Positions 12,001-15,000 of a stretch of 64,000 bases of DNA are shown here, one piece after another (position 1 is the stretch's first letter; each line of letters starts with the position of its first letter). This DNA comes from Escherichia coli (GTDB taxonomy: Bacteria > Pseudomonadota > Gammaproteobacteria > Enterobacterales > Enterobacteriaceae). The stretch lies in assembly GCF_046105845.1 (NCBI RefSeq), contig NZ_CP151004.1; one strand, given 5' to 3'. The position numbers were made by a program.

Positions 12001-15000
12001 ACCACCGTCCGCACAGAATTGATTGCGGGGATGACCACTTTTTTAACCATGGTGTACATCGTTTTTGTGAACCCGCAAATCCTCGGCGCGGCACAAATGG
12101 ACCCGAAAGTGGTGTTTGTTACCACCTGTTTGATTGCCGGTATCGGCAGTATTGCGATGGGGATATTTGCTAACTTACCCGTGGCGCTGGCTCCAGCAAT
12201 GGGGCTGAACGCCTTCTTTGCGTTCGTGGTCGTGGGGGCGATGGGTATCTCCTGGCAGACCGGGATGGGCGCGATATTCTGGGGCGCAATTGGGCTATTT
12301 TTGCTCACGCTATTTCGTATCCGGTACTGGATGATCTCCAACATTCCATTAAGTTTACGTATTGGTATCACCAGCGGAATCGGATTATTTATCGCCTTAA
12401 TGGGATTAAAAAATACTGGCGTTATTGTCGCCAATAAAGACACCCTGGTGATGATTGGCGATTTAAGTTCTCACGGCGTGTTGTTAGGTATTTTAGGGTT
12501 TTTTATTATAACCGTGTTGTCATCACGTCATTTTCATGCCGCGGTGCTTGTTTCTATTGTGGTGACGTCTTGCTGTGGCTTATTTTTCGGTGATGTTCAT
12601 TTTAGCGGTGTCTATTCCATTCCGCCTGATATTAGCGGCGTCATTGGTGAAGTAGATTTGAGCGGCGCGTTAACACTTGAACTCGCCGGTATCATTTTCT
12701 CCTTTATGCTGATCAACCTATTTGATTCATCAGGAACATTAATTGGTGTAACTGATAAAGCTGGCTTAATAGATAGTAACGGTCAATTCCCCAATATGAA
12801 TAAGGCGCTGTATGTTGATAGCGTCAGTTCGGTGGCAGGCGCATTTATTGGTACCTCATCTGTTACTGCCTATATTGAAAGTACTTCTGGTGTGGCGGTC
12901 GGTGGTCGCACGGGGCTGACGGCTGTCGTGGTCGGCGTTATGTTCCTGTTAGTTATGTTCTTCTCACCGCTGGTGGCGATGGTTCCTCCTTACGCAACCG
13001 CCGGAGCGTTAATCTTTGTTGGCGTGTTGATGACCTCAAGTCTGGCGCGCGTTAACTGGGATGATTTTACCGAATCGGTGCCTGCGTTTGTTACCACGGT
13101 GATGATGCCCTTTACTTTCTCGATCACCGAAGGGATTGCACTTGGCTTTATGTCGTACTGCATCATGAAAGTGTGCACCGGGCGCTGGCGCGATCTGAAC
13201 CTGTGTGTGGTGGTGGTCGCAGCTCTGTTTGCACTGAAGATTATTCTGGTGGATTAGTAACTGGCGAGGGTTTCCAGATATCATGAGTTCTGATTACGCA
13301 GGAGAACTCATGATCTGGATAATGCTCGCCACGCTGGCGGTGGTGTTTGTGGTTGGTTTTCGGGTGCTGACATCCGGGGCCAGAAAAGCGATTCGCCGTC
13401 TCAGCGATCGGCTGAATATCGATGTCGTACCCGTGGAGTCGATGGTCGATCAAATGGGAAAGTCAGCCGGTGACGAATTTTTACGTTATTTGCATCGCCC
13501 GGATGAGTCGCACCTGCAAAACGCCGCGCAGGTGTTGCTCATCTGGCAAATTGTCATTGTCGATGGTAGCGAACAGAATCTGCTGCAATGGCATCGGATT
13601 TTACAAAAAGCCCGCCTTGCCGCGCCGATTACTGATGCTCAGGTCAGGCTGGCGCTGGGTTTTCTGCGCGAAACCGAACCTGAAATGCAGGATATTAATG
13701 CTTTTCAGATACGCTATAACGCGTTCTTTCAGCCTGCCGAGGGCGTTCACTGGCTGCATTAAAACCGCTTCGTCTTATCAGCCTACAGACCGCGCCTGAC
13801 CTGTAGGGTGGATAAGGCGTTCACGCCGCATCCGGTATCGGAACTGACAGTAGGTGAACGCATTATCTACGTTCTATTTACAGCAGCACCTCCAGCCCGT
13901 GTTTTTGCACAATGCTGAGCAGTTTTAATGAAATGCCATTGGGGCGTTTAGCGCCACTTTCCCATTTTTGTACAGTTGAAACGCTGGTATTGAGATAGTG
14001 AGCGAAGACGGGCTGACTCACTTTTAATTTTTCCCGCAGTGCTTTTATCTCAACAGGTTGTAAGTCTTGCACGCTGGTCAGGCAGGCTTTGTCAAAAGTA
14101 CGCATCGTTTCAGCAGAAATAGCATTGACGCTGGACAATCCAGCCGCTGCGCTGTGAATAGCCTCAAATGCAGGACTTTTAAATTTAGTTTTTGCAGTCA
14201 TAGCAGATCTCTGTCAGTTCTTTAGTGTTAATCATTGCTGTTAGTTGGGCTTTCGTCAGGAAGGCATAATGCTTTGCAATTTCACGAAACCCAGCCAGTT
14301 CCTGACTATTGATGTTCGACATATCCTGTTTTGCATATAAAAACGTGTAAAACCAATTGCTTCCCCCTTTTGCCAGAATAATTGCACGCTCACGATTTTG
14401 GTGAAGGCGCTTTTTAAAAACGCCACCGCCAAGTGCATCAGCTTTACCTTGTTCTGTTTCTAAAATGGCCCGGCACAACTCTTCATCTGTTATTGCATGA
14501 GACCAGGCTTCCCTTGCAAACCATTTGGTTTTAAACACGCGCATATCGTTGAGGTCCTGTTATCAAAGTATATCACCAAGTGCAATACTTTATCCCTTGT
14601 TCCCAACACAATCGCGAAAATACATATCACCTTGCCCTATGATTTTTATTTCTTCGAGCAGCCTCGAACTTTTCCCACAACACCGTAAAAGTTGCAAAAA
14701 CGTTAAATGCGTCACACATTTCAATGTTAAAGTGGTCGGCTTTTCCCCTGAAACATGCCACGGGTAACACCATGAGTGAATTTATTGCCGAAAACCGCGG
14801 CGCGGATGCCATCACCCGACCGAACTGGTCAGCCGTTTTCTCGGTGGCGTTTTGCGTCGCCTGTCTGATTATCGTTGAGTTTTTGCCCGTCAGTTTGTTG
14901 ACGCCAATGGCCCAGGATTTAGGCATTTCGGAAGGGGTTGCCGGGCAATCGGTGACCGTGACCGCCTTTGTGGCAATGTTTGCCAGTTTGTTTATTACCC

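What the first reader, a model, noticed from the sequence alone, without database searches (positions are those of the whole stretch)
13878..14544. RelE/ParE-type toxin with HTH antitoxin inserted between yicN and nepI
Two overlapping minus-strand ORFs (119 aa toxin-like, MRVFKTKWFAREA...; 107 aa XRE-type HTH) form a toxin-first type II TA arrangement, flanked upstream by a REP element. I do not recall this module in the K-12 backbone between yicN and nepI, so it is probably strain-specific accessory content.
Basis: partly seen in the sequence, partly recalled or inferred. Interest (0 to 1): 0.4.

Follow-up and report, generated by a model that had tools for sequence, protein, structure and literature searches.

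The report
HigBA2-type toxin-antitoxin pair lost from K-12
The two small overlapping genes are an ordinary, already annotated toxin-antitoxin pair of the HigB2/HigA2 family, but it is an old resident of this chromosomal spot that K-12 has deleted, not a strain-specific insertion.

Summary
Two overlapping minus-strand ORFs, 14185-14544 (119 aa) and 13878-14201 (107 aa), form a toxin-first pair.

- **Antitoxin.** It has a C-terminal XRE helix-turn-helix like HigA2. It is 53% identical to Coxiella AntitoxP, the closest characterised relative.
- **Operator.** A palindrome overlapping an extended -10 lies about 40 nt upstream of the toxin start. A TAGCAC-N3-GTGCTA version sits there in 63-77 of 80 related loci.

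The "insertion / strain-specific accessory" reading is wrong.
- The pair is in 1716 of 5426 complete E. coli genomes, always as one chromosomal copy at this site.
- It sits next to nepI in other Escherichia lineages, Citrobacter, Klebsiella and Salmonella (STM3777/STM3778).
- DNA that K-12 lacks is alignable across these genera.
- K-12-type genomes carry one shared deletion allele: 43 bp replace 842 bp.

NCBI's pipeline already names both genes. The finding is ordinary and low in interest.

The parts
14185..14544 (-). Toxin gene (119 aa), HigB2-type RelE-superfamily mRNA endonuclease candidate. Inferred catalytic residues are K44, R46, R53, Y70 and K72.
13878..14201 (-). Antitoxin gene (107 aa). 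The conserved N-terminal segment (residues ~1-45, motif FKSPAFEAIHSAA) is the presumed toxin-neutralising part. The C-terminal part (residues ~46-102) is an XRE helix-turn-helix DNA-binding domain.
   Evidence: ORF. HTH_3 at 33 bits. Matches V. cholerae HigA-2 (5jaa) at E 8e-10 over residues 46-102. 53% identical over the full length to Coxiella AntitoxP. Follows the toxin homologue in 80/80 related loci.
14185..14201 (-). 17-nt overlap between the toxin's 3' end and the antitoxin's start; the likely site of translational coupling.
   Evidence: Coordinates and sequence. The same overlap geometry recurs in the Enterobacterales relatives.
14565..14591 (-). Imperfect palindrome AAAGTATTGCAC-TTG-GTGATATACTTTT-type site (AAAGTATTGCAC-TTG-GTGATATACTTT); presumed operator for the antitoxin or the toxin-antitoxin complex. 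The core CAC-N3-GTG lies at 14571-14585.
   Evidence: Inverted repeat I11. It is the only such site in the 64-kb window. The family consensus TAGCAC-N3-GTGCTA lies about 40 nt upstream of the toxin start in 63/80 loci (strict) and 77/80 (relaxed). Coxiella toxP has TTCAC-TTA-GTGATATAGT at the same place.
14567..14575 (-). Candidate extended -10 promoter element TGATATACT, lying inside the right arm of the palindrome.
   Evidence: Read from the sequence. The equivalent TGCTATAGT/TGCTATACT is conserved in relatives. The tool's sigma-70 scan, which requires a -35, did not call it, so this is an inference.
14555..14560 (-). ACAGGA ribosome-binding region for the toxin.
   Evidence: ACAGGA is invariant in the cross-genus alignment of the nepI-toxin intergenic region.
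13836..14677 (.). 842-bp segment that K-12-type E. coli lack and replace with 43 unrelated bases. It holds the antitoxin, the toxin, their promoter/operator and about 85 bp more.
   Evidence: Pairwise alignment and multiple alignment. All TA-negative rows span the same 712 bp, so they share a single allele.
13772..13840 (.). REP/BIME-type dispersed repeat between the yicN stop and the 3' end of the operon. It is shared with K-12, and the left deletion breakpoint abuts it.
   Evidence: At least 40 places per E. coli genome. Present in K-12. Sub-threshold Rfam match to the REP-derived naRNA4 at 13806-13871.
13808..13870 (-). 17-bp inverted repeat (13808-13824 / 13854-13870) beginning 8 nt after the antitoxin stop. 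It is a possible 3' stem-loop of the transcript, with one arm inside the REP.
   Evidence: Inverted repeat I2 (88% complementary). No T-run terminator was called. Its function is inferred.

Best explanation
This is a chromosomal type II toxin-antitoxin operon of the HigBA2 family (Pfam PF06296 toxin plus XRE-HTH antitoxin), transcribed on the minus strand away from nepI.

**Proposed mechanism, inferred by homology.**
- The 119-aa toxin enters the ribosomal A site and cleaves translating mRNA, using K44, R46, R53, Y70 and K72.
- The 107-aa antitoxin is translated from a start that overlaps the toxin's 3' end. It neutralises the toxin with its conserved N-terminal segment.
- Through its C-terminal helix-turn-helix dimer, the antitoxin binds a single palindrome that overlaps the extended -10 of the operon promoter. 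The operon therefore represses itself.
- Loss of antitoxin frees the toxin and arrests translation.

**Shown here:** the genes, the family membership, the fold prediction, the conserved residues, the conserved gene pairing, the conserved palindrome, purifying selection and the distribution.

**Inferred:** toxicity, the RNA target, neutralisation by the N-terminus and operator binding.

**Evolution.** The pair is an old, vertically inherited resident of the nepI-yicN intergenic region of Enterobacteriaceae. K-12 and about two thirds of E. coli have lost it through one deletion allele.
For: **Toxin family and fold.**
- PF06296 at 138.7 bits, full length.
- AF2 model at pLDDT 87.7 with RelE-type beta-alpha-alpha-beta4 topology.

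**Characterised relatives.**
- VcHigB2 is a ribosome-dependent mRNase with active site K49/R51/R64/Y82/K84 (PMC5416850, PMC10098735).
- Coxiella ToxP keeps these residues, inhibits translation and is rescued by AntitoxP, which binds ToxP and the toxP promoter (PMC10098735).
- ToxP is PF06296 at 165 bits and 32% identical to the window toxin over the full length. The alignment places K44/R46/R53/Y70/K72 on the active-site positions. K44, R53 and K72 are invariant in the family.

**Antitoxin.**
- E 8e-10 to HigA-2 and 53% identical to AntitoxP.
- The recognition-helix residues S75, T76, K79, W80 and E81 are invariant.
- In the fused toxin-linker-antitoxin model, antitoxin residues 10-40 form helices at pLDDT 90-95, with pTM 0.66.

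**Pairing, operator and selection.**
- The pair is conserved in 80/80 loci.
- The palindrome is at a fixed position in 63-77 of 80 loci. This matches the VcHigA2 architecture of one inverted repeat over the -10 (PMC11006873).
- dN/dS is 0.07-0.16.

**Ancestry.**
- 1716/5426 E. coli genomes, one chromosomal copy each.
- Same position next to nepI in ten other genomes of Escherichia, Citrobacter and Klebsiella and in Salmonella.
- The intergenic DNA missing from K-12 aligns across genera.
Against: - No experiment on this E. coli pair was found.
- Sequence similarity to the structurally characterised VcHigB2 is marginal: BLASTP E 0.001 over 35 residues and hhalign probability 5%. VcHigB2 itself is a borderline PF06296 member (34.5 bits).
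- The R53-R64 equivalence rests on the ToxP bridge and on predicted topology. MAFFT and hhalign alone give a different register.
- Y70 is Phe in many family members.
- The window's operator is degenerate relative to the family consensus (TTGCAC...GTGATA), and there is no recognisable -35.
- The window toxin carries W14 where other E. coli alleles have R; the effect is unknown.
- Interface contacts in the fused model could not be inspected.
- Some E. coli and other species carry frameshifted or truncated toxins, so activity in any given strain is not guaranteed.
Confidence: 0.85

Rival explanations
1. One reading: the pair is a recently acquired, strain-specific accessory module inserted between yicN and nepI by horizontal transfer.
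For: It is absent from K-12-type genomes and from about 68% of complete E. coli genomes. The representative genomes of E. albertii and E. fergusonii did not appear among the best loci. TA modules in general are mobile. Distant relatives occur on plasmids of Rhizobiales, Coxiella and Pseudomonas.
Against: - It has a single chromosomal location in all 1716 carriers and is never on a plasmid.
- No close relative occurs on enterobacterial plasmids or in phages.
- It has the same position and orientation next to nepI in Citrobacter, Klebsiella, Salmonella and cryptic Escherichia.
- Toxin identity tracks nepI identity (Spearman 0.79).
- dS of the TA genes is of the same order as that of the flanks.
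- The DNA missing from K-12 is alignable across genera.
- No repeats, integrase or transposase lie at the junctions.
Confidence: 0.05
2. The toxin is a ParE-like DNA gyrase poison, or another non-RNase RelE/ParE-fold protein, rather than a ribosome-dependent mRNase.
Against: - The best matches by both methods are HigB2.
- There is no hit to PF05016.
- The five HigB2/RelE-type basic and aromatic active-site residues are conserved.
- The closest characterised relative, ToxP, inhibits translation (PMC10098735).
- PF06296 is tabulated as ribosome-dependent mRNA degradation (PMC11980606).
Confidence: 0.04
3. The module is domesticated. It was retained for roughly the age of the Enterobacteriaceae because the antitoxin acts as a host transcription factor (for example on the divergent nepI promoter), or because the pair serves as an abortive-infection phage defence. 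In this view the toxin is secondary.
For: - The antitoxin is more conserved than the toxin in 74/74 loci, by a mean of 9.8 identity points, which is unusual for TA pairs.
- The nepI adjacency is conserved across four genera.
- The pair shares a 227-bp divergent intergenic region with nepI.
- Toxin pseudogenes with intact antitoxins occur in some species.
Against: - Only one operator-like site exists in the 64-kb window, and it is the operon's own, about 180 bp from the nepI start.
- K-12 expresses nepI without the module.
- The toxin is under purifying selection, and its catalytic residues are invariant.
- There are no PADLOC defence-system hits for the toxin.
- Family members away from nepI keep the same pair and operator.
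Confidence: 0.06

Closest known systems
Coxiella burnetii QpH1 plasmid ToxP/AntitoxP (CBUA0028/CBUA0027), PMC10098735
   Same: - Same Pfam family: PF06296 at 165 bits for ToxP and 139 bits for the window toxin.
- Same length class, including the C-terminal extension ending ...EL.E[IV].
- Toxin 32% identical and antitoxin 53% identical over the full length.
- Toxin-first overlapping genes.
- A CAC-N3-GTGATATA(G/C)T site at the promoter -10.
- For ToxP/AntitoxP, toxicity, rescue, translation inhibition, toxin-antitoxin binding and promoter binding were shown experimentally.
   Different: ToxP/AntitoxP is plasmid-borne and serves plasmid maintenance; the window pair is chromosomal and syntenic. 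ToxP has a long basic beta2-beta3 loop (PILGKGKRGG), which the window family replaces with a 6-residue loop. The Coxiella promoter has a good TTGACA -35; the window does not.
Vibrio cholerae HigB2/HigA2 (superintegron; PDB 5ja8, 5ja9, 5jaa, 8a0x), PMC5416850 and PMC11006873
   Same: - Same active-site residue set.
- Toxin-first order.
- The antitoxin has an N-terminal neutralising segment and a C-terminal XRE HTH (E 8e-10).
- A single inverted-repeat operator overlaps the -10.
   Different: - Only about 14-20% identity to the toxin. VcHigB2 is a borderline PF06296 member (34.5 bits).
- VcHigB2 lacks the window family's extra C-terminal helix and strand (residues ~98-115).
- The operator sequence differs: TGTACGC-N5-GCGTACA versus TAGCAC-N3-GTGCTA.
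- The base-contacting residues differ: R68/E71/N72/R77 versus S75/Q78/K79/A84 (alignment).
Salmonella Typhimurium STM3777/STM3778
   Same: This is the orthologous pair. The toxin is 69% identical, and the pair lies immediately next to nepI in the same orientation. It is listed among S. Typhimurium RelE-superfamily TA loci (PMC3868539, a retracted paper, used here only for the listing).
   Different: The other flank is a sugar-utilisation cluster rather than yicN. No reliable functional data were found in the library.
E. coli K-12 RelBE, HigBA (YgjNM) and MqsRA
   Same: All have RelE/ParE-fold toxins. HigBA and MqsRA are also toxin-first with HTH antitoxins. The antitoxin's C-terminal domain weakly resembles that of MqsA (26 bits).

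Membership tests
Pfam PF06296 (RelE / HigB-2 toxin family, formerly DUF1044) | Whole-protein score above the family's gathering threshold, with full-length coverage of the model | tested here: met
   138.7 bits against a cut-off of 27; residues 1-113 cover model positions 1-120 of 120. All 120 listed homologues carry PF06296.
RelE/ParE (BECR-fold) toxin superfamily | RelE-type fold: N-terminal strand, two helices, then an antiparallel beta-sheet | tested here: met
   [not shown]
HigB2-type ribosome-dependent mRNases | Active-site residues equivalent to VcHigB2 K49, R51, R64, Y82 and K84 | tested here: met
   K44, R46, R53, Y70 and K72 align to them through Coxiella ToxP. K44, R53 and K72 are invariant and R46 nearly invariant in the family. 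Y70 is Tyr or Phe. Direct alignment to VcHigB2 is ambiguous for R53.
HigB2-type ribosome-dependent mRNases | Cleaves mRNA in the ribosomal A site; inhibits translation | not testable with these tools
   Known only for VcHigB2 (PMC5416850) and, as translation inhibition, for Coxiella ToxP (PMC10098735).
Type II toxin-antitoxin system | Two small adjacent co-oriented genes whose pairing is conserved across genomes | tested here: met
   17-nt overlap. The antitoxin homologue directly follows the toxin homologue in 80/80 loci from Enterobacterales to Acetobacteraceae, Betaproteobacteria, Legionella and Gemmatimonadetes.
Type II toxin-antitoxin system | Toxin arrests growth and the cognate antitoxin rescues by direct binding | not testable with these tools
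   The only indirect support is the fused-chain AF2 model (pTM 0.66; antitoxin residues 10-40 helical at pLDDT 90-95). Contacts could not be read out.
Type II toxin-antitoxin system | Autoregulation through an operator at the promoter | tested here: inconclusive
   The palindrome at 14565-14591 overlaps TGATATACT. The consensus TAGCAC-N3-GTGCTA lies at about -40 in 63/80 loci (strict) and 77/80 (relaxed). Binding and repression were not tested. No -35 was recognised.
HigA2-type antitoxin | C-terminal XRE-family helix-turn-helix domain, with the toxin-binding segment at the N-terminus | tested here: met
   HTH_3 at 33 bits (cut-off 23) on residues 52-96. HigA-2 (5jaa) matches at E 8e-10 on residues 46-102. 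The N-terminal residues 1-45 are conserved (K4, E13, A14, H16, A19 invariant). The neutralising role of this segment is inferred.
MqsA antitoxin family (TIGR03830 / PF15731) | Score above cut-off, plus an N-terminal zinc-binding CxxC...CxxC domain | tested here: not met
   26.1 bits against 30 (Pfam) and 41 against 61.8 (NCBIfam). Only the C-terminal HTH part matches. The protein has a single Cys.
NadS family (NF041265) | Score above the NCBIfam cut-off | tested here: not met
   41.3 bits against a cut-off of 60, covering only residues 50-100.
ParE gyrase-poison toxins (PF05016) | Match to the ParE_toxin model | tested here: not met
   [not shown]
REP/BIME dispersed repeats | A short palindromic extragenic sequence present in many copies per genome | tested here: met
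   The segment 13772-13840 is found at a median of at least 40 places per E. coli genome, with the counting cap reached. It lies between convergent gene ends.
Known anti-phage defence systems (PADLOC-DB) | Match of the toxin to a defence-system model | tested here: not met
   The toxin has no hits. The antitoxin gives only weak generic HTH hits.

The most novel reading that the evidence does not exclude
The pair has stayed next to nepI since before Escherichia, Salmonella, Citrobacter and Klebsiella diverged, and its antitoxin is always more conserved than its toxin. The most novel reading not excluded is that this is a domesticated TA module. Its HTH antitoxin would have a host role, such as cross-regulating the divergent purine-nucleoside efflux gene nepI, or the pair would provide a selectable phage-defence function. 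That would explain unusually long vertical retention for a TA module.
Probability: 0.08. Interest if true: 0.5.

Novelty: already known. Interest (0 to 1): 0.18.

Why it matters
It matters little as a discovery. The genes are already named by NCBI's annotation pipeline in about 1700 complete E. coli genomes, and the family has solved structures and characterised members.

Three points are worth keeping:
1. **A correction of polarity.** K-12 is the derived (deleted) state at yicN-nepI, so comparison with K-12 alone is a poor guide to what is accessory.
2. **An unusually stable TA module.** It appears to have been vertically inherited across enterobacterial genera, and both genes are under purifying selection.
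3. **A family-wide operator.** TAGCAC-N3-GTGCTA overlaps the -10 and is matched by an invariant recognition helix. This gives a ready-made prediction for anyone studying HigA2-type repressors.

K-12 naturally lacks the module, which makes it a clean host for testing it.

Tried and rejected
1. **Is the K-12 43-bp filler a relic of the module?** The best local match falls in the toxin gene (14442-14460, 16/19), but 17 of 500 shuffles reached it. It sits at the 95th percentile of the null in other loci. A global alignment to the adjacent window-specific DNA was no better than shuffles. This is inconclusive, so polarity rests on outgroup synteny.
2. **The 76.6%-identical 'diverged copy' in strain HS-02.** It looked like an old relic, but it is a homopolymer-riddled assembly artefact.
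3. **Sigma-70 promoter and intrinsic-terminator scan of 13700-14850.** It found nothing, including no internal promoter for the antitoxin. The promoter proposal therefore rests on an extended -10 read by eye and on conservation.
4. **Direct sequence links from the toxin to solved structures.** phmmer found none. BLASTP and hhalign to VcHigB2 were marginal and gave a register for R64 that conflicts with the predicted strands. The Coxiella ToxP bridge resolved this.
5. **Rfam scan.** It returned only a sub-threshold REP-derived naRNA4 match and a chance miRNA hit.
6. **PADLOC.** No defence-system assignment.
7. **Extra operator sites in the window.** None found.
8. **Literature searches.** Searches for ECs4597/ECs4598, Z-numbers and yicN plus toxin-antitoxin found nothing on the E. 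coli pair.
9. **The fused toxin-linker-antitoxin AF2 model.** It gave confident N-terminal antitoxin helices, but the interface could not be inspected.
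Full report
**1. The observation**

- The first is 14185-14544 (119 aa, ATG start, MRVFKTKWFAREA...).
- The second is 13878-14201 (107 aa, ATG start).
- They overlap by 17 nt, with the 119-aa ORF first in the direction of transcription.
- They lie between yicN (stop at 13762) and nepI. The true nepI start is at 14772, because the NepI model aligns from residue 17 of the 14724 ORF and K-12 nepI aligns there.

**2. What the two proteins are**

*The toxin.*
- It is a core member of Pfam PF06296, 'RelE', formerly DUF1044. It scores 138.7 bits against a cut-off of 27 and covers the full model.
- A database search returned 177 relatives. All listed ones carry PF06296, and NCBI names them 'type II toxin-antitoxin system RelE/ParE family toxin'.
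- No solved structure is detectable by sequence alone.
- An AlphaFold2 model built on 35 sequences is confident (pLDDT 87.7, pTM 0.81). It has a RelE-type topology plus two extra C-terminal helices and a final strand.

*Characterised relatives.*
- A review of the superfamily lists PF06296 as the HigB2 family: toxin-first, ribosome-dependent mRNA degradation (PMC11980606).
- I checked that the HigB2 sequence I recalled is the PDB one. It passes PF06296 only marginally, at 34.5 bits.
- A much better bridge is Coxiella burnetii ToxP from plasmid QpH1. It scores 165 bits on PF06296 and is 32% identical to the window toxin over the full length, including the C-terminal extension.
- ToxP is experimentally toxic, inhibits translation and is rescued by AntitoxP, which binds both ToxP and the toxP promoter (PMC10098735).

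*Active site.*
- The HigB2 active site is K49, R51, R64, Y82 and K84 (PMC5416850; PMC10098735).
- Through ToxP these map to window K44, R46, R53, Y70 and K72.
- K44, R53 and K72 are invariant and R46 nearly invariant in the family. Y70 is Tyr or Phe.
- MAFFT and hhalign alone put R64 in a different register. That register would align a confidently predicted strand with HigB2's disordered loop, so I prefer the ToxP-based mapping.

*The antitoxin.*
- It has an HTH_3 domain on residues 52-96 (33 bits against a cut-off of 23).
- It matches V. cholerae HigA-2 at E 8e-10 over residues 46-102.
- It is 53% identical to Coxiella AntitoxP over its whole length.
- It falls below the cut-offs of the MqsA and NadS families and lacks MqsA's zinc-binding domain.
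- Its N-terminal 45 residues are conserved (FKSPAFEAIHSAA motif).
- In a fused toxin-linker-antitoxin model they form helices at pLDDT 90-95, with pTM 0.66. This is compatible with HigA2-like neutralisation by the N-terminus (PMC5416850). I could not inspect the contacts.

**3. Conservation of the pair and of a control site**

A scan of one genome per species returned 80 loci.
- In all 80, the toxin homologue is directly followed by an antitoxin homologue on the same strand, mostly overlapping it.
- The antitoxin is more conserved than the toxin in 74 of 74 comparable loci, by 9.8 identity points on average.

Upstream of the window toxin lies an imperfect palindrome, AAAGTATTGCAC-TTG-GTGATATACTTT, at 14565-14591.
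- Its right arm contains TGATATACT, an extended -10 motif.
- In the related loci a palindrome TAGCAC-N3-GTGCTA sits about 40 nt before the start codon. It is present in 63 of 80 loci under the strict pattern GCAC-N3-GTGC and in 77 of 80 under CAC-N3-GTG. It is followed by TA(T/C)A(G/C)T.
- The Coxiella toxP promoter has TTGACA, then 17 nt including TTCAC-TTA-GTGA, then TATAGT.
- V. cholerae HigA2 likewise binds one inverted repeat overlapping the -10, although the sequence is different (PMC11006873).
- The residues that contact bases in HigA2 (R68, E71, N72, R77) correspond to S75, Q78, K79 and A84 here. The segment STSxSTVQKWE is invariant in the family, in step with the invariant operator core.
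- The window has only this one site.
- The tool's promoter scan, which needs a -35, called nothing. The promoter assignment is therefore an inference.

**4. Insertion or deletion?**

*Distribution within E. coli.*
- The 667-bp module is present in 1716 of 5426 complete E. coli genomes, always once, always on the chromosome.
- The flanks are present in 5404 genomes.
- K-12-type genomes have 43 unrelated bases in place of window 13836-14677, which is 842 bp.
- Every TA-negative row listed spans the same 712 bp, so there is one shared deletion allele.

*Distribution beyond E. coli.*
- The module occupies the same place, between nepI and yicN and in the same orientation, in Escherichia sp. E1V33, 'E. 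coli' E69, Citrobacter amalonaticus, Klebsiella indica, K. michiganensis, K. oxytoca, K. grimontii, K. spallanzanii, K. pneumoniae and an unnamed Enterobacteriaceae genome.
- In Salmonella it lies next to nepI as STM3777/STM3778.
- Toxin identity tracks nepI identity across these genomes (Spearman 0.79).
- dS of the TA genes against the cryptic Escherichia lineages (0.13-0.29) is of the same order as that of the flanks (0.27-0.43). dN/dS is 0.07-0.16.
- The nepI-toxin intergenic region aligns across genera, including a palindrome (14653-14668) that lies inside the segment K-12 lacks.

*Mobility.*
- Close relatives are absent from enterobacterial plasmids and from phages. The only near-identical 'plasmid' hit is a 4.9-Mb chromosome filed in the wrong collection, and the only 'phage' hit is a Salmonella genome contig.
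- There are no mobile-element genes or terminal repeats at the junctions.

The TA-bearing state is therefore ancestral, and the K-12 state is a deletion. Attempts to recognise the 43-bp filler as a relic were inconclusive.

**5. The REP element**

The segment 13772-13840 is a genuine dispersed repeat, with at least 40 places per E. coli genome. There is a sub-threshold match to the REP-derived naRNA4 family. It lies 3' of the antitoxin stop and is shared with K-12, and the left deletion breakpoint abuts it. One of its arms pairs with 13854-13870 to give a 17-bp stem just after the stop codon. This may stabilise or end the transcript; that is an inference.

**6. Mechanism, with status of each step**

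*Shown:* gene pair, family membership, predicted fold, conserved catalytic residues, conserved pairing, conserved palindrome at the -10, purifying selection and distribution.

*Inferred from VcHigBA2 and ToxP/AntitoxP:* the toxin cleaves mRNA in the ribosomal A site. The antitoxin's N-terminal segment neutralises it. The antitoxin dimer, or the complex, binds the palindrome and represses the operon. The overlapping start couples antitoxin translation to toxin translation.

I put the family assignment at about 0.9 and the full mechanism in this strain at about 0.7. The remaining doubts are:
- the window allele has W14 where other E. coli alleles have R;
- the operator is degenerate relative to the family consensus;
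- some E. coli alleles are frameshifted or lack the ATG. O157:H7 Sakai has ATA and is annotated from a GTG two codons downstream.

**7. Novelty and verdict**

- The genes are already annotated as a RelE/ParE-family toxin and an HTH protein in RefSeq.
- The Salmonella orthologues appear in TA inventories (that paper is retracted and is used only for the listing).
- The family has structures and characterised members.
- No paper on the E. coli pair itself was found.

This is a known kind and essentially a known object. Interest is low. The modest residue is the long vertical retention next to nepI, the antitoxin being more conserved than the toxin, and the family-wide operator.

Noticed in passing
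window 16157-28729 (+): A 4190-aa ORF directly after nepI is an inverse autotransporter adhesin, with an IAT_beta domain, dozens of Big_1 repeats and Invasin_D3/D4 domains. In the closest complete genome (strain 1190) it is annotated iatC and is followed by eilA and a type III secretion tip-protein gene. K-12 and O157 Sakai have yicS at this position instead.
   Followed up: partly
window 14690-14716: The motif TGTGACGCATTTAACGTTTTTGCAACT, upstream of nepI, is almost invariant across Escherichia, Citrobacter, Klebsiella and Salmonella, and K-12 retains it. From memory it resembles a PurR-type box, which would suit a purine nucleoside efflux gene. This was not tested.
   Followed up: no
window 14653-14668: A small palindrome, TTCGAG-GCTG-CTCGAA, lies between the TA promoter and nepI. 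It is conserved across genera and sits inside the segment deleted in K-12. Its function is unknown.
   Followed up: no
L002 (E. coli O157:H7 Sakai) 3161-3167; window 14542-14544: In Sakai the toxin's ATG start codon reads ATA, and the gene (ECs_4597) is annotated from a GTG two codons downstream. Some E. coli protein clusters likewise begin MFKTKWF. Others are frameshifted 95-aa forms, so the toxin is attenuated or decaying in some lineages.
   Followed up: partly
L003 (E. coli HS-02, NZ_CP172818.1) 2870-3850: The apparently 76.6%-identical 'frameshifted toxin' at this locus is full of long homopolymer runs. It looks like a local assembly or basecalling artefact rather than a diverged relic.
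   Followed up: partly
related loci L007-L083: The antitoxin is more conserved than the toxin in all 74 comparable loci, by a mean of 9.8 identity points. This is the reverse of what is usual for type II TA pairs.
   Followed up: partly
related loci, 19 nt before the toxin start (e.g. L007, L008, L016): In 17 of 80 relatives the conserved leader ACAGGATGTCAGCCTGATG contains a three-codon mini-ORF (ATG TCA GCC TGA) whose stop overlaps the toxin ATG. The window reads ACAGGACCTCAACGATATG and lacks it.
   Followed up: no
L015, L035, L039, L053: In Mixta theicola, Lonsdalea quercina, Candidatus Pantoea formicae and Winslowiella iniecta the toxin ORF is truncated (44-98 aa). The antitoxin is intact in three of them, suggesting toxin decay with antitoxin retention.
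   Followed up: no
L004 and L044 (MAG 'Collinsella sp.' Map_57_008 contigs): Two roughly 1-kb contigs binned as the actinobacterium Collinsella carry an E. coli-type (97%) and a K. pneumoniae-type copy of the module. This is almost certainly bin contamination.
   Followed up: no
H73 (NZ_CP141089.1) and H98 (AFYI01000003.1): A 4.9-Mb E. coli chromosome is filed in the plasmid collection, and a 515-kb Salmonella Infantis genome contig is filed in the phage collection. Both would give false 'plasmid' or 'phage' hits if they were not checked.
   Followed up: yes
L021 and L034 (Erwinia mallotivora contig_45): Two copies of this TA family lie about 13 kb apart on one contig.
   Followed up: no
L002 (Sakai) 547-1880: The adenine permease gene next to yicN (adeP/adeQ) is annotated as a pseudogene in O157:H7 Sakai, but it is intact in the window and in K-12.
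   Followed up: no
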